This document shows positions 1 to 23,282 of a stretch of 45,054 bases of DNA, one piece after another. The DNA comes from a phage. Location: sequence record PZ445537.1; one strand, written 5' to 3'. Below the pieces are notes generated by a model. That model had not been told where the DNA came from, searched no databases, and saw nothing but the letters and a program-made list of their open reading frames with translations. The position numbers and the translations under genes were made by a program. How positions within the stretch are numbered: the first letter of the stretch is position 1; every line of letters starts with the position of its first letter.

Positions 1-21
1 AATCCAGCAGATATTCAAAAC

Positions 22-213
22 ATGATCGACCGCTACGCTGCAGCCGAGCTGTCTGTTCTGGAGGGGAAATCAATCACTTTCAACGGGCAGCAGATGACGC
101 TCGAAAACCTGTCGGAAATCAGAAAAGGCCGTCAGGAATGGGAGCGACGACTGGCTACGCTCAATAACAAACGCCGCGGGCGACCCGGCTATAGGCTGGC
201 GAGGTTTGGATGA
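22..213 (+). CDS. gpW-like head-tail joining (head completion) protein
   Basis: 63-aa ORF directly after the terminase large-subunit frame; its stop overlaps the portal start (ATGA at 210-213); basic C-terminal tail; position matches lambda W. Assigned by synteny and size. Confidence 0.55.
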   Translation: MIDRYAAAELSVLEGKSITFNGQQMTLENLSEIRKGRQEWERRLATLNNKRRGRPGYRLARFG

Positions 214-1709
214 GTTTTTTAGATGATGCGATAGGCCTGTTTTCACCAGGCTGGAAAGCCTCACGCCTGCGTGCCCGCGCAGTTATTAAGGCGTATGAGG
301 CGGTAAAGCAAACGCGTACCCACAAAGCCCAGAAGGAAAATCGTTCAGCCGATCAGCTCAGCCAGATGGGGGCGGTTTCACTGAGGCAGCAGGCGCGCTG
401 GCTGGACAACAACCACGATCTGGTGATTGGCGTTTTCGACAAGCTGGAAGAAAGGGTGGTGGGTGCGAAGGGCATCATAGTTGAACCGCATCCGATGCTG
501 ACTAACGGGAAGATAGCTAAAAAGCTGGCCACTGATATCCGCAGAAAGTGGGGCGAATGGTCCGTAAGACCCGATGTTACAACCCAGTTTACCCGCCCCA
601 TGCTGGAGCGGCTGATGCTGCGAACGTGGCTCCGGGACGGTGAGGTATTTGCTCAGCTGGTTCGCGGTACCGGAAATGGTCTTCAGCCGGTTGCTGGCGT
701 GCCGTTCTGGCTGGAAGCGCTGGAGCCGGACTTCGTGCCGATGAACAGCGATGCCGCCACCCAGCTCAATCAGGGCGTTTTTGTCGATAACTGGGGGCGC
801 CCGAAAAAATATCAGGTCTATAAAAGCCTGCCAGTATCCGGGCGTCAGTTCGATACCAAAGAGATAGATGCAGAAAACATGCTTCATCTCAAATTCACAC
901 GACGCCTGCACCAGACCCGCGGAACGTCTCTATTGTCAGGTGTTCTGATGCGTCTGAGCGCGCTGAAAGAGTACGAGGACTCGGAGCTTACCGCTGCCAG
1001 AATTGCTGCCGCACTCGGCATGTATATCAAAAAAGGCGACGGACAGAGCTTCGAGTCTGATTCCAGCAGCGATGACCGCGAGCTGATGATTCAGCCCGGT
1101 ATGCTCTATGACGAGCTGCAGGCCGGGGAAGAAATCGGGATGATTAAATCCGATCGCCCGAACCCTAACCTAGAGTCGTTTCGTAACGGACAGCTGCGTG
1201 CCGTGTCCGCCGGCAGTCGCCTCAGCTTTTCCAGCACATCCAGAAACTACAACGGAACGTACAGTGCCCAGCGGCAGGAGCTTGTCGAGTCAACCGACGG
1301 ATATCTGATTCTTCAGGACTGGTTCATCGGTTCAGTGACCCGGCCCATGTACCGGGCCTGGCTGAAGATGGCTATTGCTGCCGGAGAAATCAAGCTGCCG
1401 AGAGGCATCGATATGGACTCGCTTTATAACGCGGTTTATTCGGGGCCCGTTATGCCGTGGATTGATCCCGTTAAAGAAGCGAATGCCTGGAAAACGCAGA
1501 TCCGCGGCGGTGCTGCTACTGAATCCGACTGGATACGTGCCAGCGGTCGCAACCCGGATGATGTTAAGTCACGCCGTAAAGCGGAGGTTGACGAGAACCG
1601 TGAACAGGGCCTGGTGTTTGACACCGACCCCGCCAATGATAAAGGAGGCACCAGTGCCGAAGCCAAAGAACCGGGCGCGCCACCGTCCGAAAGCCAGCGC
1701 AAAAAGTAA
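210..1709 (+). CDS. portal protein (lambda gpB position)
   Basis: 499-aa ORF between the gpW-like gene and the protease/capsid gene, translationally coupled to the upstream gene. Assigned by synteny and size; no search run. Confidence 0.8.
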   Translation: MSFLDDAIGLFSPGWKASRLRARAVIKAYEAVKQTRTHKAQKENRSADQLSQMGAVSLRQQARWLDNNHDLVIGVFDKLEERVVGAKGIIVEPHPMLTNGKIAKKLATDIRRKWGEWSVRPDVTTQFTRPMLERLMLRTWLRDGEVFAQLVRGTGNGLQPVAGVPFWLEALEPDFVPMNSDAATQLNQGVFVDNWGRPKKYQVYKSLPVSGRQFDTKEIDAENMLHLKFTRRLHQTRGTSLLSGVLMRLSALKEYEDSELTAARIAAALGMYIKKGDGQSFESDSSSDDRELMIQPGMLYDELQAGEEIGMIKSDRPNPNLESFRNGQLRAVSAGSRLSFSSTSRNYNGTYSAQRQELVESTDGYLILQDWFIGSVTRPMYRAWLKMAIAAGEIKLPRGIDMDSLYNAVYSGPVMPWIDPVKEANAWKTQIRGGAATESDWIRASGRNPDDVKSRRKAEVDENREQGLVFDTDPANDKGGTSAEAKEPGAPPSESQRKK

Positions 1710-1722
1710 TTCGTGGTTCCGC

Positions 1723-3669
1723 ATGCAGGCCAGCAATAACAGCGAGGCCGACATTTTTATCTATGACGAAATCGGGTACTGGGGCGTAACGGCGAAACAG
1801 TTCGTCAATGATCTCCGGGCACTTGGGGACGTCACCCACATCAACCTTTATATCAACTCGCCAGGTGGTGATGTCTTCGACGGTATTGCTATTTATAACG
1901 CGCTGAAGCACCACGGCGCGGCGATTACCGTGCATATCGACGGTCTCGCGGCCTCCATGGCCTCGGTGATTGCGATGGTAGGCAATCCGGTCATCATGCC
2001 TGAAAACACGATGATGATGATCCATAAGCCCTGGGGGTTTGCTGGTGGTGACGCGAGCGATATGCGCGACTATGCGGATCTTCTCGACAAGGTTGAATCC
2101 GTTCTTATCCCTGCTTATGCGCAGAAAACCGGAAAATCCACCGAAGAAATTGCGGCAATGCTGGAGGACGAAACCTGGATGAACGGCAGCGAGTGCCTTG
2201 AACTGGGTTTTGCCGACCAGGTGACACCATCCCTTCAGGCTATGGCCTGTATTCATTCAAAACGTATTGAGGAATTTGAAAAAATGCCAAAAAGCATTCG
2301 CAACATGATCACCCCGCCGCGCAACACTACCCAGCGTGACCCGGTTATTACCCAGCCTCAGGCACCGCAGGCAAAAACAGACCCGGCACCGGATGAAAAT
2401 GTGATCCGCGCGCAGGTGTTGGCTGAGCAGAAAGCCCGTGTTAACGCTATCGGCGATCTCTTTGCCATGTTCGGCAATAAGCACATGGAACTGCAGAATC
2501 AGTGTGTGGCCGACCCTGATTGTTCCGTCGATAAGGCGAAAGATTTGCTGCTGGCAGAACTCGGTAAAACGGCCACGCCGTCCAATAAAACCACCCAGCC
2601 GCATATTCATGCGGGCAACGGTAACTTCGTCGCGGATGGTATTCGCCAGGCACTGATGGCGCGTGCCGGGTTCGAAGGTCAGGAGCGGGATAACGTTTAT
2701 AACGGTATGACGCTGCGCGAGTATGCGCGTATGGCCCTGACTGAAAAAGGTATCGGCGTGGCCAGCTACAACCCGATGCAGATGGTTGGTCTGGCGCTGA
2801 CCCACAGCACCTCTGACTTTGGCAACATTCTGCTTGATGTTGCGAACAAAGCGCTGATTCAGGGCTGGGACGAGGCGCAGGAAACCTTCGAGCAGTGGAC
2901 CAAAAAAGGCCAGCTGTCGGACTTCAAAACGGCGCATCGTGTCGGTATGGGTGGTTTCCCTTCTCTGCGACAGGTTCGCGAAGGGGCTGAGTACAAGTAC
3001 ATCACTACCAGTGACAAAGGCGAAACCATCGCGCTTGCCACGTATGGTGAAATCTTCTCAGTAACCCGCCAGGCGATCATCAACGACGATCTGAACCAGC
3101 TTACCGACGTACCGATGAAGATGGGGCGCGCGGCGAAAGCAACGATTGGCGATCTGGTTTACGCCATTCTGACCAAAAACCCGAAACTCTCAGACGGAAA
3201 GGCGCTGTTCCATGCCGATCACAAGAACCTGAGCTCGGGCGCAATTTCTGTGGCCAGCCTGGACGAATCGCGCAAGCTGATGCGTCTGCAGAAGGAGGGG
3301 GAGCGAACCCTGAATATCCGTCCGGCCTACATGCTGGTGCCCGTCGCCCTGGAAACTCTGGCAAATCAGACCATCAAGTCGGCCAGTGTTAAAGGTGCAG
3401 ACATCAATGCCGGGATCGTTAACCCTATCCAGAACTTTGCAGAAGTCATTGCCGAACCGCGCCTGGATGAAGCTGATGCGAAAGCCTGGTATCTGGCCGC
3501 CGCGAAGGGCACCGACACCATCGAGGTCGCTTATCTCAACGGCGTCGACACGCCATACATCGATCAGCAGGAAGGCTTCACCACTGATGGTATCGCCACG
3601 AAAGTGCGTATTGATGCAGGTGTGGCGCCGCTGGACTATCGCGGCATGACCAAATCCTCTGGTCAGTAA
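1723..3669 (+). CDS. prohead protease (ClpP/S14-like) fused to major capsid protein
   Basis: First ATG after the portal stop within a longer in-frame ORF from 1375. N-terminal part has ClpP-type serine protease motifs (SPGGDV, GLAASMAS, MIHKPWG); C-terminal ~330 aa is capsid-like. One continuous frame with no internal stop, followed by a strong terminator. Confidence 0.8.
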   Translation: MQASNNSEADIFIYDEIGYWGVTAKQFVNDLRALGDVTHINLYINSPGGDVFDGIAIYNALKHHGAAITVHIDGLAASMASVIAMVGNPVIMPENTMMMIHKPWGFAGGDASDMRDYADLLDKVESVLIPAYAQKTGKSTEEIAAMLEDETWMNGSECLELGFADQVTPSLQAMACIHSKRIEEFEKMPKSIRNMITPPRNTTQRDPVITQPQAPQAKTDPAPDENVIRAQVLAEQKARVNAIGDLFAMFGNKHMELQNQCVADPDCSVDKAKDLLLAELGKTATPSNKTTQPHIHAGNGNFVADGIRQALMARAGFEGQERDNVYNGMTLREYARMALTEKGIGVASYNPMQMVGLALTHSTSDFGNILLDVANKALIQGWDEAQETFEQWTKKGQLSDFKTAHRVGMGGFPSLRQVREGAEYKYITTSDKGETIALATYGEIFSVTRQAIINDDLNQLTDVPMKMGRAAKATIGDLVYAILTKNPKLSDGKALFHADHKNLSSGAISVASLDESRKLMRLQKEGERTLNIRPAYMLVPVALETLANQTIKSASVKGADINAGIVNPIQNFAEVIAEPRLDEADAKAWYLAAAKGTDTIEVAYLNGVDTPYIDQQEGFTTDGIATKVRIDAGVAPLDYRGMTKSSGQ

Positions 3670-3691
3670 AAAACAGTCCTGACAAACAGAT

Positions 3692-3710
3692 GCCCGTAAG
3701 GGCTTTTTTT
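3692..3710 (+). terminator. intrinsic terminator after capsid gene
   Basis: Hairpin GCCCGTAAGGGC (3692-3703) followed by TTTTTTT (3704-3710); a second hairpin CAGCCCCGCAAGGGGCTG at 3722-3739 lies just before the next RBS. Confidence 0.6.
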
Positions 3711-3751
3711 ATACCTGAAACCAGCCCCGCAAGGGGCTGAATGGAGAAGTT

Positions 3752-4078
3752 ATGGCTAAGAACTATGCGCAGGACGGGAAAACGATCCCTCTGGTAAACG
3801 GCGGTGCAACCGATGTTCACAGCGGCGACCCGGTTGTTGTTGGAAAACTTATCGCGGTGGCAATTACCGATATCCCGGCTGGCGATACCGGGGACGGTTT
3901 TACTGAGGGTGTTTTCCTTCTGCCAAAAGTAACCGCAGATGCGGTTACTGCCGGGGCGCAGGTGTATCTGAAGGACGGCAAAATCACGATCGAAGAAACG
4001 GACGCCGTTGCCGCGGGCATCGCCTGGGAAGATGCAGGGGCAAACACCACCGTTGTTGAAGTTAAGATCAATGCCTAA
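3752..4078 (+). CDS. DUF2190-like small head protein (putative decoration/cement protein)
   Basis: 108 aa starting MAKNYAQDGKTIPLVNGG, Gly/Ala/Thr-rich; lies immediately after the capsid gene where lambda has D/FI. Family name is from memory. Confidence 0.6.
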   Translation: MAKNYAQDGKTIPLVNGGATDVHSGDPVVVGKLIAVAITDIPAGDTGDGFTEGVFLLPKVTADAVTAGAQVYLKDGKITIEETDAVAAGIAWEDAGANTTVVEVKINA

Positions 4079-4346
4079 CCCCTTTGACCGGATGGCGGCG
4101 CGCATGGACGCGGCCACCATAAAAAAGATGGGAAAGACAGCGATCATCAATGGCAGCAGCTATGACGTTGTTCCAGCCGATCAACTCGAGGAAATGGGAC
4201 CATTGTCGGGAACAGGTACTTCGCTGGTGGTTTTCTCTGAGCTTTACCAGCCACGCCGAAACGACAGCGTCGACTACGACGGTAAGAACCTGACCGTTAC
4301 CCGCTATGACATGTTCAACGGAAAACCCCGCATCCATCTCGAATGA
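4071..4346 (+). CDS. head-tail joining protein (lambda FII position)
   Basis: 91 aa from ATG 4071 (overlaps upstream stop, ATGCCTAA); the ORF track start at 4008 is in the same frame but overlaps the previous gene. Sits between head and Z/U tail-completion genes. Confidence 0.45.
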   Translation: MPNPFDRMAARMDAATIKKMGKTAIINGSSYDVVPADQLEEMGPLSGTGTSLVVFSELYQPRRNDSVDYDGKNLTVTRYDMFNGKPRIHLE

Positions 4347-4355
4347 GGAGGCGCT

Positions 4356-4934
4356 ATGTCTGTGAAAGGACTGGAAAGGGCTATTCAGAACCTGAACAGC
4401 CTCAGCCGGTTAATCGTTCCTGAGGCAACCGCAAAAGCACTAAACCGGGTGGCCAGCAGAACGATAAGCCAGGGGAGCAAAGCTGTAGCGAAAGAAGCAA
4501 CAGTTGATGATAACCGGAAAAAGGGGCTTCCGGTTCGTCTGGTCCGCCAGCGTTCCCGTCTGCGCAAGGCCCGTCACGATCGCCCGGTCGCGTCGATAAA
4601 AATCAACCGCGGTAATCTTCCTGCGATAAAGCTTGGCACGGCGCGCGTCCGGCTCTCGCGTAAAAAAGGGGCCAGAAACGGAGCGGGCAGCGTCCTTAAA
4701 ATCGGGCCCTATACCTTTCGTAACGCTTTTATCCAACAGCTCTCGAACGGGCGCTGGCAGGTCATGCGGCGCGTAGGTCAGGCCCGTTATCCGATTGATG
4801 TGGTCAAAGTTCCTCTTGAGACACCGCTCACCGTGGCCTTCACCGCTATTTCAAAGCGCCTTATTGAAAGCGATATGCCCAAAGAACTTTCCGCAGCCCT
4901 GAAAAACCAACTGAGGATCCACCTGAAGCGATGA
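4356..4934 (+). CDS. minor tail protein Z-like (tail completion)
   Basis: 192 aa, same length as lambda gpZ, directly upstream of an unambiguous gpU homologue and coupled to it (ATGA at 4931-4934). Confidence 0.6.
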   Translation: MSVKGLERAIQNLNSLSRLIVPEATAKALNRVASRTISQGSKAVAKEATVDDNRKKGLPVRLVRQRSRLRKARHDRPVASIKINRGNLPAIKLGTARVRLSRKKGARNGAGSVLKIGPYTFRNAFIQQLSNGRWQVMRRVGQARYPIDVVKVPLETPLTVAFTAISKRLIESDMPKELSAALKNQLRIHLKR

Positions 4935-5332
4935 ACAGACACAGCGCAATTCGTGCAGCCATTCTGGCAAAACTGAAAGCCGAGATCACCGACACGGTCA
5001 CCTGGTTTGACGGGCGCCCTGTTTTTCTTGAAGAGCAGGATCTCCCTGCCGTGGCTGTATACCTTTCTGACGCGGAGTACACCGGCGATTCGCTTGACGA
5101 AGATTCGTGGCAGGCGGTTGTTCACATCGAGGTATTTCTTAAAGCCTCCAGCCCCGACAGCGCGCTTGATTCCTGGATGGAAGAGAAAGTGTATCCGGCA
5201 ATGGCCTTCATCCCGGGTCTGACCGAACTGGTCGAGACGTTCACCCCGCAGGGTTATGACTATCAGCGGGATGATGAAATGGCCACCTGGGGTTCAGTCG
5301 ATTTCACGTACTTAATCACCTATTCAATTTAA
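4931..5332 (+). CDS. U: tail terminator protein gpU
   Basis: 133 aa; clear collinear similarity to lambda gpU as recalled (FDGRP, FPAVAVYL, AEYTG, HIEVFL, GYDY-RDD, TY-ITY). Confidence 0.9.
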   Translation: MNRHSAIRAAILAKLKAEITDTVTWFDGRPVFLEEQDLPAVAVYLSDAEYTGDSLDEDSWQAVVHIEVFLKASSPDSALDSWMEEKVYPAMAFIPGLTELVETFTPQGYDYQRDDEMATWGSVDFTYLITYSI

Positions 5333-5341
5333 GAGGTACTT

Positions 5342-6085
5342 ATGCCTACTCCAAACCCGCTGGCCCCCGTGAAAGGTGCCGGTACCACCCTCTGGCTTTA
5401 CACCGGAACGGGCAACGCTTTCGCTAACCCACTCTCGGATATCGACTGGAACCGCCTGGCGAAAATTAAAGAGCTGACGCCGGGCGAAATGACCGCCGAA
5501 TCGTATGACGACACTTACCTCGACGACGAGGATGCCGACTGGAACGCGACGGCCCAGGGGGCAAAATCTGCTGGCGATACCTCGTTCACCCTCGCCTGGA
5601 AGCCGGGCGAAGAAGGGCAAAAAGACCTTGTCGCATGGTTTATTGATGGCTCAGTACGTTATTACAAAATCAAATACCCGAACGGTACCGTCGACGTTTT
5701 CCGCGGCTGGTGCAGCAGCCTGGGTAAAGCCATTCCGGCAAAAGAGGTCATTACCCGTACAGCGAAAATCACCAATACCGGCAAGCCGGAACTGGCAGAA
5801 GAAAGCGGGACCCCGAATATCCCCGTGACCGGCGTTACGCTCGATAAAGCCACGGCAAGCGTGGCCGTCGGCGCAACCACAACGCTCAATGTGGCGGTTA
5901 ACCCTGCCAGTGCCTCAGATACCTCGTTCCGCGTGGCAACCTCCGACGGGGCAAAAGCAACGGTCACCGTTAGCGGCAACGCGATCACCGTCACCGGCGT
6001 GGCGGCAGGCACCGCTGACGTTATTGTTATGACCAGCGACGGTAATTTCGTTGCGGTCTGCAAAGTCACCGTAACTGCAGCGTAA
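5342..6085 (+). CDS. V: major tail protein gpV with C-terminal Ig-like domain
   Basis: 247 aa; N-terminus [18 protein letters not shown] and the [33 protein letters not shown] blocks match lambda gpV almost residue for residue; strong RBS AAGAGG. Confidence 0.95.
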
Positions 6086-6095
6086 GGAAGGACGC

Positions 6096-6527
6096 ATGTT
6101 TCTGAAAAAAGAGAAGTTCACCTGGCAAACAGAATCCCTGACCATCTTCGAGCTGTCGGCGCTGCAGCGTATTGAGTACATCACGTTTATGGCCGCAGAG
6201 GAAAAGGCCGTCAGCGCTGACAGCGACGGCATCAGCGATCAGGAAATGACGGCCAGGCTGATAGGCTCAAATATTCGCTGCGGTGCGCGTTTGATCGCGA
6301 TGTCTTTGTGGCATAACGATCCGGCTGGCACGGATGTGGAAACGCTTTATCAGCAGGTGCTTAGCGGCTGGCCGCCAGAGGCGATCGGTAAAGCAGAAAT
6401 GGAAATAAAGCTGCTCTCCGGCATGCTCGTTCCGGTTGAGGGTGACAACGCTGCCGATCCGGATGCCTCAGCGGAGGCCGAAAGCGCTGAACCCGTTACG
6501 GCGGAAAAGCCCTTGCCAGCGAGCTGA
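6096..6527 (+). CDS. G: tail assembly chaperone gpG
   Basis: 143 aa; MFLK start, LSALQRIE and AMSLWHN blocks match lambda gpG; acidic C-terminus. Confidence 0.9.
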   Translation: MFLKKEKFTWQTESLTIFELSALQRIEYITFMAAEEKAVSADSDGISDQEMTARLIGSNIRCGARLIAMSLWHNDPAGTDVETLYQQVLSGWPPEAIGKAEMEIKLLSGMLVPVEGDNAADPDASAEAESAEPVTAEKPLPAS

Positions 6528-6850
6528 AGTTTGTCCTGAATCTGGCGCGCGAGTTCGGGCGACCCGACTGGCGCGCCATGCTGGCTGGAATGACTTCCAG
6601 TGAGCTGGGCGACTGGCACCAGTTCTATCGGGAGCATTATTTTCAGGACGCGCAGCTCGATGCGCATTTCTCAGAGCTGCTTTATTCCATCTCCACTCTT
6701 TTCTTCCGCGACCCAGAACTTACCCCCGCACATTTCAGCCTGCTTTCTCCTTCCGGTATCGTCATCAGCGATGACGAGCCGGATGATGATGCGCTGATGA
6801 CCGCAGCTGAGGGGATAACAGGAGGTATCCGATATGGCCCAGCAGATTAG
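6491..6850 (+). CDS. T: gpT frame, expressed as gpG-T fusion by -1 programmed frameshift
   Basis: The -1 frame relative to G is open from 6491 (after TGA 6488-6490) to the stop at 6848-6850, overlapping the last 12 codons of G; no good independent start or RBS. Arrangement matches the conserved lambdoid G/GT frameshift. Confidence 0.7.
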   Translation, partial: TRYGGKALASELKFVLNLAREFGRPDWRAMLAGMTSSELGDWHQFYREHYFQDAQLDAHFSELLYSISTLFFRDPELTPAHFSLLSPSGIVISDDEPDDDALMTAAEGITGGIRYGPAD

Positions 6851-9800
6851 CGATCTGGTCATCAACCTTGACGTCGACAGCGCCACGTTTAGTGAGCAGG
6901 TTGCCCGCATAAAGGGCCAGCTAACCGGGATGGCTGAGGACTCTGAAAAAGTCCAGACGCGAATGCAGCGCGCTTCCGAGCGGCAGGCGGCTGCGTTTAA
7001 AACCGTGGGCGACGCCGGCGCGGCGGCTGCCGCAGATATGAAATCCCGCCAGTCGGCCGCAACGGAAGGGCTGACCAAAGACTGGCAGAACGTTTCCAGG
7101 TCCGTTGATGAAACTCACCGCCGCGTGACCGAGCTTAATCAGCGCATGCGTGAGAATGACGGGCAGGCCGCAGCGCTTGCCCGTCGACAGGATGAACTGG
7201 CGGCATCATTTTTCCGCCAGATTGACGGCGTTCGCCAGCTCAATGGTGAGACACAGTCGCTTGCGAACGTGCAGGCGCGCTTTCGCGCAGCCAGGGCACA
7301 GGGCAACATAACCCAGCAGGATTATCTCGCCCTTATTTCCCGTACCACGGCCCGGCAAAAAGAACTGCAGATCGTGGAGGAAAAATCGGCCGCCGCGCGC
7401 ACGCGATTCCTCAGCCAGCTGAAGCAACAGGTTGCTGAGCAAAAGCTCTCCGGTACCGAGCTGCTGCGCATGAAGGCGGCGCAGGTCGGTGCCAGCGATG
7501 CGGCTGAGGTCTATATCCGCAAGCTTGAAGCTGCAAAAGTGGCCACGCACGGTCTGGGGCTGCAAAGCGCTGCTGCCCGGCAGGAGTTGGGGGTACTTAT
7601 CGGCGAGGTCATGCGCGGTAACTTCGGTGCGCTGCGCGGCTCCGGGATCACGCTGGCGAACCGGGCAGGATGGATAGACCAGCTGCTGTCGCTACGCGGC
7701 CTGGGGATCGCCGGCCTGGTTGGTGGGATTGCCGCGGCGGTATTCGGGCTGGGTAAGGCCTGGTATGACGGCAGCAAAGAGTCTGAGGAATTTAACAGGC
7801 AGCTGATCCTGACCGGGAACTACGCGGGGAAAACGTCAGGGCAGCTTCAGGCGCTGGCGCGCTCGCTGGCCGGTAATGGCATCACGCAGCATGCCGCTGC
7901 AGGCGTGCTGGCGCAGGTCGTTGGAAGCGGCGCGTTCAGCGGGAATGACGTCAGCATGGTCAGCAATGTTGCCGCCAGGCTGCAGCAGGCTACCGGGCAG
8001 GCCGTCGACGAAACCATAAATCAGTTTAAACGCCTGAAGGATGATCCGGTTAATGCGGTCGCGACGCTTAACGATTCCCTTCACTTTCTGACGGCCACCC
8101 AGTATGAACAGATTGCTTCTGCTCAGGCGCTGGGGGATTCGCAGAAAGCTGCCGAGCTGGCCATGCGGGCATATTCCGACGCGGTCATTCAGCGCGCCGG
8201 TGCGGTCGAGGATAATCTCGGAACCCTCGAAAAAGCCTGGAACTGGGTGAAGAATGCCGCCTCCGGCGCATGGGATGCGATGCTGGGCGTCGGGCGTAAT
8301 CCTGACACCGCGATGAAGCGCCAGGACTCTTTTGCTGAATGGCAGGCAGCAGAGAAAGAGTATCGCGCGCTGTCCAGCAATCTTAAAGTCGACCCGGATT
8401 ATGCCGGTAACAACGTTCTGCAGAAAGCGGATGCGGAAAGGCTCAGAAACGCGCGCCAGCAGGTGGAGCTGAAAAAGCAGGCTTACGATCTTGCCGATCA
8501 GCAATACGCCCAGGAAGGGCTGGCAGCCGCGCGGGAAAAAATGCGGACGGACCAGCAGGCTCAGGCAATCCGCAACCAGCAGCAGTTTAACCAGCTGGTG
8601 GAGTCCGGTGCGACGGCGGCAGAAAAGCGGGCTTCAGCAGAGAAAAAGCTCAGTCAGCTTATTGAGAAAAACCGCCAGGATGCGAAAGACGGTGTCGCCA
8701 CGCTGTGGACAGAAAAGGACATTGCCGCGGCCCGCGCCGGGATTGAAAAGCAGTGGAAGGATCCAAAAACGCCGAAAGGCAAAAGCTACGCAACGCCCGC
8801 CGGGGACAAAGCCGAGGAAAAGGCGCAGGCCGAACTTCTCACCCTTCAGGCCCAGCTTAAAACGCTTGAGCAGCATACCAGCGTGAACGACGTCATAAGT
8901 AAACAGCGTCAGGATCTCTGGCAGACTGAAAATCAGTTCACCGTTCTGCAGGAGGCGGCTGGGCGTCGTCAGCTTACGGCGCAGGAAAAATCCCTGCTGG
9001 CGCACAAGGAAGAAACGCTCGAGTACAAGCGGCAGCTGGCCGACCTGGGCGATAAGGTTGCCAGCCAGCAAAAGCTCAACCAGCTGGCCGATCAGGCCGT
9101 GAAGTTTGAGCAGCAGCAAAAAGCCGCCAGGGCGGGCCTGCAGGCTCAGTCTGAGGGGGTATCCACCCGGGAAGCCGGGCGACAAACTACGCTGCAGCGT
9201 CTCAGCGAAAGCTATTCGTACAACCCTCAGGCGCAGCAAAAGGTTCTGGAAGAGCAAAGGGCGACGTTCGAGGCTGAAGATGCCCTGCGCGCAAACTGGC
9301 TGGCCGGTGCGAAACAGGGCTGGGCCGAATATCAGGATTCAGCGACAAACGTTTTCAGCTCTGTTCAGCAGATTTCGCAGGCTACGTTCAGCGGGCTGGC
9401 GGGCCAGCTTACCAGCCTGACGACAACCGGGAAGGCGAGCTTCAGGGACTTCACCAGCTCGATCCTTAAAATGATTGTGTCCGTTATCAACCAGCTGCTG
9501 GTGGCTTATACCATCCAGAGCGCTATGGGCTGGGTGAGCGGCGGGGCGAAAACCTCCTCTGCAGGCCAGTCATTCGCGGTTCCGTCATTCCGGCCACAGG
9601 GCTATGACGTGGGCGGTTTTACCGGGCACGGCGGCAAATATGAGCCCGCAGGCGTGGTACATCGCGGGGAATTCGTATTCACCAAAGAATCGACCAGCCG
9701 CATCGGTGTGGCAAATCTCTATCGCCTCATGCGCGGGTATGCCTCGGGTGGTCTCGTCGGCAGCGGGAGCGCAGCCGGTGCTGGGATGGGTGGGATCAAT

Positions 9801-11821: not shown

Positions 11822-12431
11822 GACGCTTATTCTCGAAGGGAAAATGGCTAAAAAATTCGGTAAACGCGTTCAGTTTGACGTTGCCGACCTGCGCGAAATG
11901 CTCAGGGCCATGTGTTCACAGGTTCCCGGATTCAAAAAATACATGTCGGAAGCTCATATGAAGGGGATCCGTTTCGCCTTTTTTAACGGCGACAACAATA
12001 TCGGGCTAGAAGAGTTTGATATGACCCGCGGTGGAAGCGTGTATCGGATCGTGCCCGTTTATGAGGGGGCCAAAAGTTCGGGCGTCCTTCAGATAGTTGT
12101 CGGCGCTGTTGCGCTGGTCGCTGCATTCTTTACCGCTGGTGCGAGCATGGCAGCCTGGGGGGCGGCCATGAGTGCAACAGCCATCAGCGCCACGTCAATT
12201 CTGACCGGGGTTGGGGTGTCAATGATGCTGGGCGGCGTTGTCCAGATGCTCACACCCCAGCCATCCTTCGGCGCGGGTAAATCCTCCAGCACGGACAACA
12301 CGCCTAACTATGCCTTCGGGGCGCCGGTCAATACCGTCGCTATGGGGCATCCTGTCCCCCTGGCCTACGGTCTGATCGAGGCTGGGGGAGCGATAGTCAG
12401 CGCCGGTATGTACTCGAGCGATCAGCAATAG
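11814..12431 (+). CDS. I: tail assembly protein gpI
   Basis: 205 aa from ATG 11814 (overlaps the K stop); the hydrophobic Gly/Ala block AGAKSSGVLQIVVGAVALVAAFFTAGASMAAWGAA...LGGVVQML matches lambda gpI. Confidence 0.85.
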   Translation: MVKTLILEGKMAKKFGKRVQFDVADLREMLRAMCSQVPGFKKYMSEAHMKGIRFAFFNGDNNIGLEEFDMTRGGSVYRIVPVYEGAKSSGVLQIVVGAVALVAAFFTAGASMAAWGAAMSATAISATSILTGVGVSMMLGGVVQMLTPQPSFGAGKSSSTDNTPNYAFGAPVNTVAMGHPVPLAYGLIEAGGAIVSAGMYSSDQQ

Positions 12432-12510
12432 TGAAATGCAACCGAATAAGATGAACGTTACATTGCAATCTCCCTTGGTTATCATGTCCAAAACGATGTC
12501 GATCAAGGAG

Positions 12511-12993
12511 ATGAAAGTGAAAAAATACGGTTTGGTCTTATTTGGTGTGCTCTTTATTTCAGGTTGTGCCCCACAAAATCAGAATAACAATTTACAAAAG
12601 CAATACGCTGATTTAGCAAATTGTGAAGATAACATTACGATGCCAAAACAAATGCCGCATAGTAAAAAGGAGTTTGCGGACTTTTTATCTAAGGCTGCGC
12701 TTAATGCCTCGGCAGATCAGTTTGTTATTCAGAAGCGTATAGAGATTCTTCAATTAGTTGGATGGGATAATTCGGTAGCTGATGCAATAACAACATGTAG
12801 CGCCACCAGAAAGAGCAAGCTTAAAGAAATTGGGGCGAATGTGTTTGAAACCATGAAAGCCAATACTAAAGACACAGAGGAACGTCGTGCTCTTGTTGAG
12901 GCTTATAGTTCGTGGGAAGCTTATGTAACCAGTCAAACGCCACTCGCAAAACAGGACTTTGACTCAAAAGTTAGTTATTACAAAAACATGTAA
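12511..12993 (+). CDS. lipoprotein moron (function unknown)
   Basis: Signal peptide with lipobox (MKVKKYGLVLFGVLFISGC); RBS AAGGAG at 12504-12509 (GTG 12517 is an alternative start); the gene is visibly AT-rich compared with flanking tail genes; inserted between I and J where lambda has none; own terminator follows. Confidence 0.7.
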   Translation: MKVKKYGLVLFGVLFISGCAPQNQNNNLQKQYADLANCEDNITMPKQMPHSKKEFADFLSKAALNASADQFVIQKRIEILQLVGWDNSVADAITTCSATRKSKLKEIGANVFETMKANTKDTEERRALVEAYSSWEAYVTSQTPLAKQDFDSKVSYYKNM

Positions 12994-13023
12994 TAAGACG
13001 CCATCATTAATACTAACAAATAA

Positions 13024-16914: not shown

Positions 16915-17552
16915 GCGGATTCGAAGTTTACAACAGCGACGGAAAACTGCTGGTGGATTCACAAAACAGATCGACCATGTTTTATGATCAACGCGCGCTG
17001 GGTGCCGTAACCAATAAAGGCTATTACCGTGTTGATAGCCCGTTTGGTGATGGCAGTACACTTGGCACCACTCCTCAGGCATTCTGGAATGACGGGCGCT
17101 TAAGGTGGCTGCAGCTGGGTACGAACAAATACGGTTTTCCGGGTGCTGATATGCTGGAAGATAATGCGGGTAGCATGATCCGAACTGCGCGAAATATTGG
17201 CATCCAGAGCGGCTATCTCGATGTGTTTGATAGTGCCGGAAACCTTATCTGGAGTGCGGCCTCAGCGTCTAAGATGCCGAGAGTATTCGGGTTCTTTGAT
17301 GTGCCAGCGAACTATGACCTGCAGAACAATACGTTCTCAGTAAGTCTCAGTTTCAACCCCTGGATTCTGGTAAATAACTGCCCAGGTAATCTCAGCGATG
17401 ATGGCACGGTTGTAGGGTATTCAGGTGTAGTGCTCAAATGGACTGGCTCGCAGCTGCAGGGCAGATATATATCTAAAAATCAGCGCAACTGGAGCCAGAC
17501 ATTTCAGGGTAGGGGATTACGAATCCCCATTGCTCAGTTTGTCGGTATTTGA
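16911..17552 (+). CDS. hypothetical protein, coupled to upstream ORF
   Basis: 213-aa ORF starting at an ATGA overlap (16911-16914); no recognisable motif; possible tail-tip accessory by position. Confidence 0.5.
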   Translation: MSGFEVYNSDGKLLVDSQNRSTMFYDQRALGAVTNKGYYRVDSPFGDGSTLGTTPQAFWNDGRLRWLQLGTNKYGFPGADMLEDNAGSMIRTARNIGIQSGYLDVFDSAGNLIWSAASASKMPRVFGFFDVPANYDLQNNTFSVSLSFNPWILVNNCPGNLSDDGTVVGYSGVVLKWTGSQLQGRYISKNQRNWSQTFQGRGLRIPIAQFVGI

Positions 17553-17879
17553 CTCAGGGGGAACGCGAGGATACTGCGTGGCAATCATGTTTTGTCTCAC
17601 GCCTTTCGCTGCGTTGAAGCGATAAACAACATCCAGTTTATCGGTTTTTTTATAGCAAATATTACTGAGCCGCTTATTTACATGGCGGCTAAATATTCCA
17701 TTGCTGCTGTCAGAAATAACCGTCATTTCTCGCGTGGCGCAGTCAATATTAACGTGAATATCACCGCCCAATGATAAACGGGCAGCGTCAACCGGATAAT
17801 CCATTCTGAATGCGTTGTCTGTGTGTTTACTGGAACAGCCAGCCAGCAGCAAAAATATTGCAGCAAATAATCGTTTCAT
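17517..17879 (-). CDS. lipoprotein (reverse-strand moron)
   Basis: 120 aa; signal peptide with lipobox (MKRLFAAIFLLLAGCSS); RBS AGGAA 8 nt upstream; opposite strand to the tail operon, 3' end converges on the previous gene by 36 nt. Confidence 0.6.
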   Translation of the reverse strand: MKRLFAAIFLLLAGCSSKHTDNAFRMDYPVDAARLSLGGDIHVNIDCATREMTVISDSSNGIFSRHVNKRLSNICYKKTDKLDVVYRFNAAKGVRQNMIATQYPRVPPESNTDKLSNGDS

Positions 17880-17949
17880 TTCTACATTCCTGTAAATGCG
17901 GGAATATCCATTTTATTAGAGTTTAAAAAATAGTCAGATTGATATGAGC

Positions 17950-17984
17950 GATCAATTTTACATGATTGATCGTTTCAAACGATC
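17950..17984. promoter_or_regulatory. compound palindrome in divergent intergenic region
   Basis: GATCAAT-N8-ATTGATC (17950-17971) overlapping GATCGTTT-C-AAACGATC (17968-17984), between the reverse lipoprotein start (17879) and the tail fibre start (18006); three GATC sites. Confidence 0.4.
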
Positions 17985-18005
17985 GTTATTATCGTGAGGT
18001 AGTTC

Positions 18006-21657: not shown

Positions 21658-22212
21658 ATGCAATATGGGTATGCAAGGGTATCAACTTTTGACCAAAATC
21701 TTGAATTACAGTTAGAGGCGCTAAATCGGTCAGAATGTGACCAGATATTTGAGGATAAAATATCCGGAGCGAAGTCAAAACGTCCTGGCCTGGATAAGAT
21801 GATGAAGTTATTGCGGCCAGGTGACACCGTCATCGTCTGGAAGCTAGACCGGCTCGGTCGATCACTCATACACCTCGTCGATTTACTGCGCTATTTCCGG
21901 GCTAATAATATTGAATTTGTCTCAATCACTGAGGGAATAAGGATCAGCACGTCAATCGGCAGATTCGCATACACAATGTTGAGTGCTGCGGCTGAGATGG
22001 AAAGAGAAAATATTATTGAAAGAACAAGGGCAGGTTTAGCCGTGGCAAGGGCAAAAGGGAGAATAGGTGGGAGGCGTCCAAAGTTAACACCAGAACAATG
22101 GGCGCAGGCTGGGAGATTAATATCAAACGGCGTGGATAGAAAACAGGTGGCAATAATTTATGATGTGGCTGTATGCACGCTTTATAAAAAATTTCCGGTG
22201 GGGCAGGCTTAA
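21658..22212 (+). CDS. serine recombinase, DNA invertase (Hin/Gin/Cin/Pin family)
   Basis: 184 aa; N-terminal catalytic motif YARVSTFDQ; RPGL…GDT-VVWKLDRLGRS block matches Hin as recalled; C-terminal HTH; sits just outside the invertible segment as gin/cin/pin do. Confidence 0.9.
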   Translation: MQYGYARVSTFDQNLELQLEALNRSECDQIFEDKISGAKSKRPGLDKMMKLLRPGDTVIVWKLDRLGRSLIHLVDLLRYFRANNIEFVSITEGIRISTSIGRFAYTMLSAAAEMERENIIERTRAGLAVARAKGRIGGRRPKLTPEQWAQAGRLISNGVDRKQVAIIYDVAVCTLYKKFPVGQA

Positions 22213-22254
22213 ATGATTAAAGGGCAGCTTCTGGATAGGCTGCCCGTCAAAGTA

Positions 22255-22518
22255 TTATCCATTTTGCCGGACAGTTGGGAATTCAGACGTCAGCCACATG
22301 TCGGATTCATCAAACATTTCCTCCAGCATACGGTTCAGCTTTTCCCGATCACTTTTGCTGGCATCACTATTTAAGCCGTTCGCCTGCATCGGCTTTACCT
22401 TCACTTCGGCATCAGGAAAAATCTGGTGCACCCGCTTCGTTAGTTCAGCCAGGATGATCTCTCTGGCCCCTTGGAGCCCTTCAACATTTCGCTTGTCATA
22501 AACCAGTTCAACAAACAT
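22255..22518 (-). CDS. dinI: DinI-like DNA-damage-inducible protein
   Basis: 87 aa from the ATG with RBS GAGAGGA (track ORF extends further upstream); acidic C-terminus and overall pattern fit the DinI family; promoter carries an SOS box. Confidence 0.7.
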   Translation of the reverse strand: MFVELVYDKRNVEGLQGAREIILAELTKRVHQIFPDAEVKVKPMQANGLNSDASKSDREKLNRMLEEMFDESDMWLTSEFPTVRQNG

Positions 22519-22576
22519 ACCGATCCTCTCATAAGTGAAAAATGCCTGTGCTTGATCTGATTTCATAAAAATACTA

Positions 22577-22592
22577 CTGTATATGTATACAG
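22577..22592. promoter_or_regulatory. LexA (SOS) box within divergent promoter
   Basis: CTGTATATGTATACAG (CTGT-N8-ACAG) embedded in the minus-strand promoter TTGACT-17 nt-TATTTT for the dinI-like gene; also directly upstream of the plus-strand ORF at 22618. Confidence 0.7.
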
Positions 22593-22617
22593 TCAATAAG
22601 CGAGTGAGGGTGCGTTC

Positions 22618-22857
22618 ATGCCTCGTCAACCGGATATTCGTGCTGCTTTTATTGCGGCCATACAGCAAAACCCGAAGGGCTATCTCTGCCTGCATACAGA
22701 CAGATTCATCACTGAACTGCAGGAGAGGCACTGGCATTTCAGCCAGGCGGATGCAAATTCATGGATCGAACGATACCAGCCAGACTTCGCCGATAAGACG
22801 ACAAACGGAAGTGAGAACCGATACTGGATCCTGCGTAACATGGGGAGGGTTTTCTAA
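22618..22857 (+). CDS. hypothetical protein
   Basis: 79-aa ORF with RBS GAGTGAGGG; divergent from the dinI-like gene across the SOS box. Confidence 0.45.
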   Translation: MPRQPDIRAAFIAAIQQNPKGYLCLHTDRFITELQERHWHFSQADANSWIERYQPDFADKTTNGSENRYWILRNMGRVF

Positions 22858-23177
22858 TGGGGTTTCCATCGCCAGCCATGGATTACCAGGAGCAGCGCAT
22901 GACGATAGATGTTATCTGCGGTGTAGATAACAACTGCCGGGTTATTGAAACTTCATGCGGCTGGGCCGTTATAAACGTCAGTCTTAAGCCAGAAGGAGGG
23001 GATACGTTGCTGGTTAGCATGGACGGGAGAAACCAGTTCGTGAAGCTAATGGGCCACGCCCTGATCACTCAAGATGGTGAAGCGATAGAAGGGGAAGCTT
23101 TGAATGACGTAATGGTACACGGCGTTCTTACACATACACTTAACCAAGTAAAAGACGATAAATCGCCTGTAATGTAG
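22857..23177 (+). CDS. hypothetical protein
   Basis: 106-aa ORF starting at an ATG that overlaps the upstream stop (TAATGG). Confidence 0.45.
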   Translation: MGFPSPAMDYQEQRMTIDVICGVDNNCRVIETSCGWAVINVSLKPEGGDTLLVSMDGRNQFVKLMGHALITQDGEAIEGEALNDVMVHGVLTHTLNQVKDDKSPVM

Positions 23178-23249
23178 CGTGTAAATGTCGGGGATTATTC
23201 CCCCATTTTTCCCCAATGATTCCCCGTACAAATTTCAAACATAAAAAAA

Positions 23250-23272: not shown

Positions 23273-23282
23273 ATAATAATTT

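What the first reader, a model, noticed from the sequence alone, without database searches (positions are those of the whole stretch)
1723..3669. Prohead protease and major capsid protein encoded as one 648-aa polypeptide
ClpP/S14-type protease motifs occupy the N-terminal ~200 aa and a capsid-like domain the C-terminal ~330 aa, with a linker between and no stop or second RBS. This differs from lambda (separate C, Nu3, E) and implies the capsid protein is released by autoproteolysis. The gene is followed by a DUF2190-like decoration candidate and a strong terminator.
Basis: partly seen in the sequence, partly recalled or inferred. Interest (0 to 1): 0.45.

Follow-up and report, generated by a model that had tools for sequence, protein, structure and literature searches.

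The report
Fused protease–scaffold–capsid gene, already known
This phage makes its head-maturation protease, scaffold and major capsid protein from one long gene, an arrangement already described for Salmonella phage Gifsy-2 and already named in NCBI annotation. The sequence also suggests an earlier start codon and a second start inside the gene, which I did not find described in the papers I could read.

Summary
The window is Escherichia phage Eeyore, a relative of mEp213.

**What is confirmed**
- The ORF 1723-3669 exists and has no internal stop.
- It carries a ClpP-like protease domain (aa 8-168) and a capsid domain (aa 338-645).
- It matches NCBIfam NF045540, [quoted passage not shown], over its full length: 996 bits against a cut-off of 475.
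- It is 62% identical and colinear with the Gifsy-2 "tripartite capsid gene".
- All 82 homologues examined, from Enterobacterales, Pseudomonas, Shewanella and Pasteurellaceae, keep one uninterrupted ORF. The fusion is therefore real, and it is already known.

**Three details need correcting**
1. The start is probably GTG 1654, which follows the Shine-Dalgarno sequence AAGGAGG. That gives 671 aa. ATG 1723 is a non-start codon at the same position in 30 of 82 homologues.
2. "No second RBS" is doubtful. An invariant in-frame ATG at 2284 lies at the protease/scaffold boundary. AGGA sits 10 nt upstream and is conserved at wobble positions in 51 of 52 representatives. The site lies in the least structured part of the mRNA. 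This suggests a nested 461-aa scaffold-capsid product, as with lambda C/Nu3.
3. The terminator-like hairpin lies between the capsid gene and the decoration gene. Its stem has only 4 bp, although a hairpin at this position is conserved.

Structure prediction failed, so the HK97 fold rests on profile homology. Interest is low for the fusion and moderate for the nested start.

The parts
210..1709 (+). Portal gene (lambda-family portal). Its last 56 nt overlap the proposed start of the fusion gene in another frame.
   Evidence: Pfam Phage_portal_2 E=4e-82 and NCBIfam TIGR01539 at 455 bits.
1641..1647 (+). Shine-Dalgarno sequence AAGGAGG, 5 nt ahead of GTG 1654.
   Evidence: Duplex dG with the 16S rRNA 3' end is -11.6 kcal/mol, as strong as the best late-gene starts in the window. 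An SD plus start codon aligns at this place in 7 of 8 phages.
1654..3669 (+). Proposed full-length CDS of 671 aa (73.2 kDa): N-terminal extension, ClpP-like protease, linker, helical scaffold-like region, major capsid protein.
   Evidence: The 671-aa form is the cluster representative P0001, with 1124 member sequences.
1723..3669 (+).
   Evidence: NF045540 scores 996 bits against a cut-off of 475, covering aa 9-647.
1744..2226 (+). ClpP-like (MEROPS S14-type) protease domain, aa 8-168 in 648-aa numbering.
   Evidence: Pfam CLP_protease E=7e-40, NCBIfam NF045542 'head maturation protease, ClpP-related' at 228 bits, and PDB ClpP chains down to E=7e-20.
1954..1956 (+). Codon of the putative catalytic Ser78 (motif AASMA).
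   Evidence: Aligns with the ClpP catalytic Ser. Ser in 82 of 82 homologues.
2023..2025 (+). Codon of the putative catalytic His101 (motif MIHKP).
   Evidence: Aligns with the ClpP His. His in 82 of 82 homologues.
2170..2172 (+). Codon of Glu150, at the position of the ClpP catalytic Asp (49 residues after the His, as in E. coli ClpP).
   Evidence: Alignment to ClpP chain 6hwm. Glu in 82 of 82 homologues. The E. coli ClpP numbering is from memory.
2270..2273 (+). Internal Shine-Dalgarno-like AGGA, 10 nt upstream of ATG 2284.
   Evidence: Present at exactly this spacing in 51 of 52 representatives. The third base of the first codon is G in 51 of 52 although the residue varies (E, Q, K), while gene-wide G-ending use is 0.38, 0.29 and 0.62.
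2284..3669 (+). Candidate nested in-frame CDS of 461 aa (50.1 kDa): scaffold-like region plus capsid protein, without the protease.
   Evidence: ATG in 82 of 82 homologues. SD dG is at most -5 in 52 of 52 representatives, against 10% of 1179 other internal ATGs. Excess synonymous-codon conservation peaks gene-wide at aa 180-188 (z=4.4). The surrounding 60 nt are among the 10% least structured windows of the gene in 50 of 52 representatives. No protein-level evidence.
2323..2394 (+). Variable Pro/Gln/Ala-rich linker, aa 201-224.
   Evidence: Only 22-54% identity to the 7 comparison phages, with length variation, against 62-89% in the flanking domains.
2395..2565 (+). Helical scaffold-like (delta-domain-like) segment, aa 225-281.
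   Evidence: The only part of either AlphaFold model with pLDDT 74-82; three helices. No Pfam family. The scaffolding role is inferred from its position and from what is written about Gifsy-2 and MD8.
2734..3657 (+). Major capsid protein domain, aa 338-645.
   Evidence: Pfam Phage_capsid_4 E=6e-60 and Mu-like_gpT E=2e-9. A profile of this part hits solved capsid chains 8rkx/8rkc (E=3e-8) and 9jod (7e-6).
3692..3710 (+). Terminator-like hairpin GCCC-GTAA-GGGC followed by T7, 23 nt after the stop codon.
   Evidence: The stem and T-run are invariant in 7 phages. A hairpin with a T-run in this position occurs in 45 of 52 representatives, with clade-specific sequences. Not flagged by the consensus scan, which needs a stem of at least 5 bp.
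3722..3739 (+). Second hairpin CAGCCCC-GCAA-GGGGCTG, just upstream of the decoration gene's SD (GGAG, 3743-3746).
   Evidence: Folded. RNAalifold finds 5 pairs kept through changes on both sides among 7 phages. Function unknown.
3752..4078 (+). Head decoration (cement) protein gene, 108 aa, 10.9 kDa.
   Evidence: Pfam Phage_cement_2 E=1.8e-22 and PHROG 122 'head decoration' E=5e-39. Same position in Gifsy-2, F10 and cdtI.

Best explanation
This is the Gifsy-2-type 'tripartite' capsid gene of a lambdoid siphophage (Escherichia phage Eeyore, mEp213 group). One reading frame encodes a ClpP-like serine protease, a flexible linker with a helical scaffold-like segment, and a Mu-gpT-like major capsid protein. 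That capsid protein is presumed to have the HK97 fold.

**Shown here**
- The domain content.
- Membership of the curated fusion family.
- Orthology and synteny with Gifsy-2.
- Conservation of the uninterrupted frame.

**Inferred pathway**
1. Translation starts at GTG 1654 and gives a 73-kDa precursor.
2. Precursors assemble on the portal into a procapsid, with the protease and scaffold parts inside.
3. The protease (Ser78/His101, with Glu150) removes everything upstream of the capsid domain. This would leave a shell protein of roughly 34-39 kDa.
4. The shell expands on DNA packaging.
5. The product of 3752-4078 then decorates the shell.

**Further inference (my estimate: about 0.55)**
A second, in-frame initiation at ATG 2284 makes a 50-kDa scaffold-capsid protein that lacks the protease. 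Most shell subunits would then carry no protease, and the full-length form would deliver a limited number of protease copies. Lambda achieves this with the nested C and Nu3 genes.
For: **Family and domains**
- NF045540 full length at 996 bits against a cut-off of 475; PHROG 133 full length.
- CLP_protease and Phage_capsid_4 domains.
- PDB ClpP hits and PDB capsid-protein hits with a profile.
- RefSeq annotates the same gene as the fusion in 33 E. coli genomes.

**Orthology and literature**
- Gifsy-2 is 62% identical over aa 1-646 in one piece, with the same order TerL, small head-tail protein, portal, fusion, decoration, Z, U, V.
- PMC12315714 links the mEp213 head proteins to the fused Gifsy-2 genes.
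- PMC8508860 describes protease, scaffold and capsid protein in one gene for MD8/F10-like phages.
- Gifsy-2 capsids are listed as T=7 and as carrying a trimeric cement protein at the 3-fold axes.

**Conservation**
- All 82 homologues have a single ORF, with Ser78, His101 and Glu150 invariant.

**Start at 1654:**

**Nested start at 2284:**

**No other candidate:** no other capsid-protein or scaffold candidate lies between the portal and tail genes.
Against: - Nothing here shows processing, the cleavage site or the products. These are inferred from homology and from what other papers say about Gifsy-2; the primary paper (Effantin et al. 2010) is not in the held library.
- Both AlphaFold runs failed (mean pLDDT 38), so the HK97 fold was not tested structurally.
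- The residue at the ClpP Asp position is Glu, so the catalytic mechanism may differ.
- RefSeq and the mEp213 record place the start at ATG 1723.
- For the nested start, the AGGA-to-ATG spacing of 10 nt is at the long end. Met188-Pro189 could be conserved for protein reasons. The 52 representatives are related to each other, so the counts overstate independence.
Confidence: 0.88

Rival explanations
1. There is a single product only. The gene makes just the full-length protease-scaffold-capsid polypeptide, and every shell subunit brings its own protease. The conserved AGGA-N10-ATG would then reflect something else, such as a translational pause at the domain boundary, an RNA-level signal, or a protein-level need for Met-Pro.
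For: - No protein evidence for a second product was obtained here.
- RefSeq and GenBank annotate one product.
- The MD8 paper discusses one gene without an internal start.
- Another conserved Met (aa 114) also has SD-like sequence upstream, produced simply by Gly-Gly-Asp codons. SD-like strings can therefore arise from coding constraints.
Against: - At aa 183 the residue varies (E, Q, K) yet the nucleotide G at the third codon position is kept in 51 of 52 representatives. Coding constraint does not explain this.
- The gene-wide peak of synonymous conservation lies exactly there.
- The mRNA there is the least structured part of the gene.
- The site coincides with the protease/scaffold boundary.
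- Nested in-frame scaffold genes exist in lambda.
Confidence: 0.4
2. The fusion is artificial. A sequencing or assembly error removed a stop codon or a frameshift between a separate protease gene and a separate capsid gene.
For: None was found. In many other phages the ClpP-like protease is a separate gene.
Against: - The same 1947-nt frame is intact in 10 phage records and 33 complete E. coli genomes.
- It is intact in all 82 homologues, down to 50% identity, from four bacterial orders or families.
- Curated full-length HMMs exist for the fusion.
Confidence: 0.01
3. The C-terminal domain is not the shell protein. It would be another virion or scaffold component, and the true major capsid protein would be encoded elsewhere.
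For: Structure prediction failed, so the fold is not shown directly.
Against: - Phage_capsid_4 at 6e-60 and Mu-like gpT hits.
- Profile hits to solved capsid chains.
- No other capsid-like gene lies in the head module.
- The orthologue in Gifsy-2 is treated in the literature as its coat protein.
Confidence: 0.02

Closest known systems
Gifsy-2 'tripartite capsid gene' (record NC_010393, locus tag STM1034.3n.Gifsy2; Effantin et al. 2010, Virology 402:355)
   Same: 62% identical and colinear over aa 1-646. Same protease-middle-capsid order. Same neighbours: portal upstream and a PF09956-type decoration gene downstream. The same two intergenic hairpins. The same internal AGGA-N10-ATG.
   Different: A different host and a different phage. 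Gifsy-2 has ATC where the window has ATG 1723, so its annotated start is 33 codons upstream. The experimental data (cryo-EM, T=7) exist for Gifsy-2 only, and the primary paper could not be read here.
NCBIfam NF045540, 'ClpP-like prohead protease/major capsid protein fusion protein', as annotated in RefSeq and in phages mEp213, mEp043 and LLS
   Same: The window protein scores 996 bits against a cut-off of 475 over the whole model. The mEp213, mEp043 and LLS proteins are 99.7% identical, and Flotzy is 100% identical.
   Different: Nothing of substance. RefSeq starts the gene at the ATG equivalent to 1723, whereas the evidence here favours the upstream GTG.
Pseudomonas phage MD8 gp5 and F10 gp5 (PMC8508860)
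   Same: Protease, scaffold and capsid protein are in one gene of 693 aa. F10 is 58% identical over the full length, with the same synteny.
   Different: One strong 8-bp terminator hairpin instead of the two enterobacterial hairpins. The paper does not discuss an internal start.
Lambda head genes C, Nu3, D and E
   Same: The same functions in the same part of a lambdoid late operon. Lambda nests Nu3 in frame inside C (C 4418-5737, nu3 5132-5737). This is the precedent for the proposed nested start at 2284.
   Different: - Lambda has separate genes from different families: gpC is peptidase S49, E is PF03864 and D is PF02924.
- There is no significant pairwise similarity between gpC and the window protein (E=0.04).
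- The decoration gene precedes the capsid gene in lambda and follows it here.
- The Nu3 start lies inside the protease fold, not at a domain boundary.
HK97 gp4 protease and gp5 capsid protein with its N-terminal delta domain
   Same: The scaffold function is fused to the N-terminus of the capsid protein and removed by the phage protease (as summarised in PMC8508860). The proposed 461-aa nested product would be the direct analogue of HK97 gp5.
   Different: The HK97 protease is a separate gene and, from memory, belongs to another family. From memory, HK97 uses covalent crosslinks rather than a decoration protein. No HK97 sequence was compared here.
NCBIfam NF045541, 'prohead protease/major capsid protein fusion protein' (second fusion family); PHROG 4523
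   Same: Window aa 199-648 (linker, scaffold-like region and capsid domain) align to model positions 174-634.
   Different: The score of 428 bits is below the cut-off of 525, and the N-terminal protease part does not align. That family joins a related scaffold-capsid module to a different N-terminal domain.

Membership tests
NCBIfam NF045540 (ClpP-like prohead protease/major capsid protein fusion protein) | Whole-protein HMM score above the curated cut-off, with end-to-end coverage | tested here: met
   996 bits against 475; protein aa 9-647 to model positions 2-652 of 652.
NCBIfam NF045540 (ClpP-like prohead protease/major capsid protein fusion protein) | ClpP-like domain and capsid domain in one uninterrupted reading frame | tested here: met
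   The frame is intact in 82 of 82 homologues.
Gifsy-2-type tripartite capsid gene | Colinear full-length similarity to the Gifsy-2 gene, and the same gene neighbourhood | tested here: met
   62% identity over aa 1-646 in one piece, with portal upstream and decoration gene downstream.
Gifsy-2-type tripartite capsid gene | Proteolytic release of a mature capsid protein that forms a T=7 shell with decoration trimers | not testable with these tools
   Needs virion proteomics or cryo-EM. For Gifsy-2 it is stated in secondary sources only.
ClpP / peptidase S14 | Catalytic Ser and His in the conserved motifs at canonical spacing | tested here: met
   Ser78 (AASMA) and His101 (IHKP) align with the ClpP residues and are invariant in 82 of 82 homologues.
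ClpP / peptidase S14 | Catalytic Asp completing the triad | tested here: not met
   The aligned position is Glu150, and it is Glu in 82 of 82 homologues. A Ser-His-Glu arrangement is plausible but untested. This is why the domain is called ClpP-like rather than ClpP; cellular ClpP models score far below their cut-offs.
ClpP / peptidase S14 | Tetradecameric barrel working with a Clp ATPase | not testable with these tools
   No test was possible. It is not expected for a prohead protease.
HK97-fold major capsid proteins | Sequence membership of a capsid-protein family with solved relatives | tested here: met
   PF25209 at 6e-60 and PF10124 Mu-like gpT at 2e-9. The profile hits PDB capsid chains 8rkx/8rkc at 3e-8 and 9jod at 7e-6.
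HK97-fold major capsid proteins | A three-dimensional HK97 fold (A and P domains, E-loop, N-arm) | tested here: inconclusive
   Two AlphaFold2 runs gave mean pLDDT 38.1 and 37.9. No fold search was run, because the models are unusable.
Nested in-frame scaffold gene (lambda C/Nu3 type) | Internal in-frame start codon with a ribosome-binding site, sharing the stop codon of the longer gene | tested here: met
   ATG 2284 is present in 82 of 82 homologues. AGGA lies 10 nt upstream in 51 of 52 representatives with wobble-level conservation. mRNA structure is low there. The lambda arrangement was checked in NC_001416.
Nested in-frame scaffold gene (lambda C/Nu3 type) | The shorter protein is actually made and takes part in assembly | not testable with these tools
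   Needs mapping of translation starts or protein analysis.
Intrinsic (Rho-independent) terminator | GC-rich stem-loop directly followed by a T-run | tested here: inconclusive
   GCCC-GTAA-GGGC plus T7 at 3692-3710. The stem has only 4 bp and falls below the scan threshold. The position is conserved in 45 of 52 representatives, with longer stems in other clades. Termination itself was not tested.
Phage cement/decoration protein PF09956 (from memory, formerly DUF2190) | Pfam score above the gathering threshold, and a position next to the capsid gene | tested here: met
   80.1 bits against 24, and PHROG 122 'head decoration'.

The most novel reading that the evidence does not exclude
The 'single' capsid gene would be two nested genes. 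Besides the full-length protease-scaffold-capsid precursor, ribosomes would start at the invariant ATG 2284 behind a conserved AGGA. They would make a 461-aa scaffold-capsid protein, which would be the main building block of the procapsid. The full-length form would then serve mainly to bring a limited number of protease domains inside. The ratio of the two starts would set the protease dose. This would bring the Gifsy-2-type gene into line with lambda C/Nu3 and, from memory, Mu I/Z, and would answer how a T=7 procapsid copes with a protease on every subunit. I found no mention of this internal start in the papers I could read, but the primary Gifsy-2 paper was not available.
Probability: 0.55. 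Interest if true: 0.45.

Novelty: already known. Interest (0 to 1): 0.28.

Why it matters
The fusion itself adds nothing new. It has been described for Gifsy-2 and for MD8/F10-like phages. It has its own NCBI family name. It is widespread in prophages of Enterobacterales, Pseudomonas, Shewanella and Pasteurellaceae.

Two points have practical value.

1. **Annotation.** Public records disagree on the start of this gene: window positions 1483, 1654 and 1723 are all in use. The comparative evidence favours 1654. The GenBank record of this phage also misses the decoration gene.
2. **Assembly.** If the nested start is real, this widespread head module sets its protease-to-shell-subunit ratio by alternative initiation within one reading frame. 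That is directly testable in easy genetic systems such as mEp213, LLS and Gifsy-2. It would change how the 'tripartite gene' assembly pathway is drawn.

Tried and rejected
1. **Structure prediction, full length.** The 671-aa protein was run with 35 homologues at 81-94% identity. Mean pLDDT was 38.1.
2. **Structure prediction, nested product.** The 461-aa product was run with 72 sequences from two clades, after a second homologue search seeded with a Haemophilus relative. Mean pLDDT was 37.9. Both searches list only their 120 best hits, which were too similar to one another. No fold search was run on these models.
4. **The primary Gifsy-2 paper** (PMID 20427067) is not held. Searches for STM1033 and for descriptions of an internal start found nothing.
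5. **Consensus scan.** It found no promoter in 1-7000, and none of its terminator-like sites lies next to the gene's end. The hairpins were found by reading and folding the spacer.
6. **Other internal ATGs with SD-like sequence upstream** (aa 92, 114, 153) were set aside. Met153 is not conserved. The SD-like strings before Met92 and Met114 follow from conserved residues such as Gly-Gly-Asp.
7. **ATG 1636 and ATG 1483** (the GenBank Eeyore start) were rejected as starts. ATG 1636 has no SD (dG +0.4), and ATG 1483 would overlap the portal gene by 227 nt.
8. **The middle region** (aa 188-337) has no Pfam family.
9. **Pairwise comparison with lambda gpC** shows no significant similarity.
Full report
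**Identity of the window.** The 1947-nt stretch is 100% identical to Escherichia phage Eeyore (PP925821.1, 45,057 bp). It is 98.6-99.4% identical to the lambdoid phages mEp213, mEp043, Flotzy and LLS. Copies at 95-99.5% identity sit in the chromosomes of 33 of 5426 complete E. coli genomes, including Nissle 1917. The 15 records listed are all annotated in RefSeq as [quoted passage not shown].

**Checking the observation.** An ORF runs from ATG 1723 to TAA 3669, 648 aa, in a frame that is open back to 1375.
- Pfam places CLP_protease at aa 8-168 (E=7e-40) and Phage_capsid_4 at aa 338-645 (E=6e-60), with a weaker Mu-like gpT match.
- NCBIfam NF045540, the curated model for exactly this fusion, matches end to end at 996 bits against a cut-off of 475. 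The ClpP-related head-maturation-protease domain model NF045542 scores 228 bits.
- PHROG 133 also matches over the full length.
- The upstream gene is a lambda-family portal gene. The downstream gene (3752-4078) is a PF09956 Phage_cement_2 / PHROG 122 head decoration protein.

I translated the gene from 7 other phages: Klebsiella Kp4865-4, an Stx2d phage, cdtI, Fels-1, Providencia PSTCR8lys, Gifsy-2 and Pseudomonas F10. They are 60-86% identical to the window protein, and all are uninterrupted. A scan of one genome per bacterial species gave 79 more loci in Enterobacterales, Pseudomonas, Shewanella and Pasteurellaceae, at 48-100% identity. All 82 full-length genes analysed have one ORF from the protease to the capsid domain, 629-674 aa long. 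In the phage collection, 80 records cover at least 80% of the protein. An artefact is excluded.

**What is already known.** Gifsy-2 (NC_010393) matches aa 1-646 in a single piece at 62% identity. Its gene order is the same: large terminase, small head-tail protein, portal, fusion gene, decoration gene, then Z, U and V homologues.
[quoted passage not shown] 2010)".
[quoted passage not shown] The F10 gene is about the same length and is 58% identical to the window protein.
- Secondary sources list Gifsy-2 as a T=7 capsid with a trimeric cement protein at the 3-fold axes.
- The primary Gifsy-2 paper is not in the held library. What I say about its content beyond these citations is from memory.

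The finding is therefore a correct rediscovery of a known arrangement.

**The protease.** The best solved relatives are ClpP subunits, with E-values down to 7e-20.
- Ser78 (AASMA) and His101 (IHKP) align with the ClpP catalytic Ser and His.
- The residue 49 positions after the His, where E. coli ClpP has its catalytic Asp (numbering from memory), is Glu150.
- All three residues are invariant in 82 of 82 homologues.
- Cellular ClpP models score far below their cut-offs.

This is a ClpP-like prohead protease, not a ClpP.

**The capsid domain.**
- A single-sequence search of the PDB with the C-terminal part gave only weak hits.
- A profile of eight C-terminal parts hits the chains 8rkx/8rkc, "Bacteriophage Mu GpT domain-containing protein" (one entry set holds 436 chains, which is evidently a capsid), at E=3e-8. 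It also hits 9jod, "Major capsid protein", at 7e-6.
- Two AlphaFold2 runs failed, with mean pLDDT 38.1 and 37.9. The homologue searches return only their 120 best hits, all too close to the query.

The HK97 fold is therefore supported by family membership and homology. It is not supported by a model. The only moderately confident modelled part (pLDDT 74-82) is a three-helix segment at aa 225-281, as expected of a scaffold or delta-like region.

**Domain map (648-aa numbering).** The percentages are identity to the 7 comparison phages. The middle region, aa 188-337, has no Pfam family.

| Region | Residues | Identity |
|---|---|---|
| Protease | 1-170 | 62-89% |
| Boundary helix | 171-187 | part of 171-200: 40-90% |
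| Pro/Gln-rich variable linker | 201-224 | 22-54%, with indels |
| Helical region | 225-285 | 39-75% |
| Spacer and conserved HIYAGNGN...DNxYNGMTLRE block | 286-337 | 50-88% |
| Capsid domain | 338-648 | 68-89% |

**Correction 1: the start codon.**
- ATG 1723 lies 13 nt after the portal stop codon and has no Shine-Dalgarno sequence (dG -2.2).
- GTG 1654 is preceded by AAGGAGG with a 5-nt spacer (dG -11.6), as good as the best late-gene starts in the window.
- In Gifsy-2, Fels-1 and F10 the codon aligned with ATG 1723 is ATC or ATT. Their annotated starts lie 32-33 codons upstream, behind their own SD sequences.
- Across 82 genes this codon is ATG in only 52. Among the 52 representatives (below 90% identity to one another) it is ATG in 32, and the SD there is weak (median dG -2.8).
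- The best start lies mostly 22-27 codons upstream (median dG -8.2). A W[FY] motif three residues before position 1 is invariant. In the 8 phages checked this motif lies beyond the portal stop, so it is not conserved because of the portal frame.
- PHROG profiles extend into the 23-aa extension and score higher with it. PHROG 13984 rises from 167 to 198 bits and is then covered at positions 2-123 of 123. PHROG 133 rises from 1111 to 1126 bits.
- The 671-aa form is what most gene callers produce (P0001, 1124 member sequences).

The gene is probably 1654-3669, encoding 671 aa (73.2 kDa) and overlapping the portal gene by 56 nt. The GenBank Eeyore record starts it at window position 1483 instead, which is implausible.

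**Correction 2: a second ribosome-binding site.** A scan of in-frame internal start codons with SD-like sequence upstream gave four candidates. One of them, ATG 2284 (Met188), lies exactly at the end of the protease domain.
- Met188-Pro189 is invariant, and the ATG is present in 82 of 82 genes.
- AGGA lies exactly 10 nt upstream in 51 of 52 representatives.
- The codon supplying its first bases encodes Glu, Gln or Lys in different clades but ends in G in 51 of 52. G-ending codons make up only 38%, 29% and 62% of Glu, Lys and Gln codons in these genes.
- SD duplex energy is at most -5 kcal/mol in 52 of 52 representatives, against 10% of 1179 other internal ATGs.
- Synonymous-site conservation has its gene-wide maximum at aa 176-188. 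With 8 phages it is the top of about 520 windows. With 52 representatives it gives z=4.4 and is the top of 438 windows.
- The 60 nt around the ATG fold at -5.0 kcal/mol on average, against -13.7 for the rest of the gene. They are among the 10% least structured windows in 50 of 52 representatives, with GC 0.37 against 0.52.

These are the marks of a translation initiation region. The product would be a 461-aa (50.1 kDa) scaffold-capsid protein without protease. Lambda does the equivalent with nu3 (5132-5737) nested in frame in C (4418-5737), although with unrelated proteins.

The caveats are these. The sequences are phylogenetically related. The spacing is on the long side. There is no protein evidence. 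I put the probability at about 0.55.

**Correction 3: the 'terminator'.** The 82-nt spacer after the stop codon holds two hairpins.
- Hairpin 1 is GCCC-GTAA-GGGC followed by seven T (3692-3710). It is too short for the consensus scan. Its stem and T-run are invariant in seven enterobacterial phages whose proteins are only 64-86% identical to the window's.
- Hairpin 2 is CAGCCCC-GCAA-GGGGCTG (3722-3739), which abuts the decoration gene's SD. It keeps its structure through compensatory changes; 5 pairs change on both sides.
- A hairpin followed by a T-run lies 5-31 nt after the stop codon in 45 of 52 representatives. In Pseudomonas and Pasteurellaceae the stems are different and longer (7-10 bp).
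- There is no terminator after the decoration gene. The next gene's ATG at 4071 overlaps its stop codon.

A conserved terminator-like or stabilising element therefore follows the capsid gene, but in this phage it is not 'strong' by stem energy.

**Likely mechanism.** Shown here: the domain content, family membership, orthology and conservation. Inferred:
1. Precursors assemble on the portal with the protease and scaffold parts inside.
2. The protease removes everything N-terminal to the capsid domain. The expected mature protein is 34-39 kDa if cleavage falls between aa 286 and 338.
3. The shell expands, and the 10.9-kDa decoration protein binds.

**Verdict.** The fusion is real, correctly interpreted and already known, so interest in it is low. 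The start-codon correction and the candidate nested gene are the only parts that might be new, and they are cheap to test.

Noticed in passing
window 1483-4150 (PP925821.1 27096-29760): The GenBank record of phage Eeyore annotates this region poorly. The fusion CDS starts 240 nt too far upstream. The portal is called 'hypothetical protein'. The decoration gene 3752-4078 is missing, and an antisense 'hypothetical protein' is annotated in its place.
   Followed up: partly
window 3692-3739: A two-hairpin element lies between the capsid and decoration genes. Hairpin 1 with its T7 run is invariant in 7 phages. Hairpin 2 covaries and abuts the decoration gene's SD. A hairpin with a T-run at this position occurs in 45 of 52 representatives, with clade-specific sequences. 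Its role is unknown; it could be an attenuator, an mRNA 3' stabiliser or a processing site. The decoration protein would be expected in numbers similar to the capsid protein, so attenuation at this point is puzzling.
   Followed up: partly
AP000400.1 (VT1-Sakai) 23248-26507; KJ959591.1 (PAN70) 4426-6404: In the Stx1 prophage VT1-Sakai the homologous fusion gene is split in two by an IS629 insertion. The Pseudomonas PAN70 record notes its copy as disrupted. These are probably defective or mis-sequenced copies.
   Followed up: no
L009 (DAINBV010000046.1), L031, L079: A 100% identical copy sits on a 44.5-kb contig binned as a 'Geobacteraceae' MAG. Other copies sit in MAGs labelled 'Bacillota' and 'Saccharibacteria'. 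These are most likely mis-binned phage or prophage contigs from Enterobacterales or Pasteurellaceae.
   Followed up: no
window 2317-3669 (aa 199-648): A second curated fusion family (NF045541; PHROG 4523, 'major head and protease protein') aligns only with the linker, scaffold-like and capsid part, not with the protease. A related scaffold-capsid module has apparently been joined to different N-terminal domains.
   Followed up: no
window 4008-4346: The mechanical ORF starts at TTG 4008, but the Pfam Gifsy-2 (PF13856) / PHROG 153 match begins at residue 22. The real start is therefore probably ATG 4071, overlapping the decoration gene's stop codon by 8 nt. GenBank starts this gene later still, at window position 4104.
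   Followed up: partly
window 12001-13000, 17001-18000, 22001-25000, 38001-40000: GC content drops to 0.44-0.48 in these blocks, against 0.54-0.63 in the head and tail genes. This is the usual mosaic pattern of lambdoid genomes.
   Followed up: no
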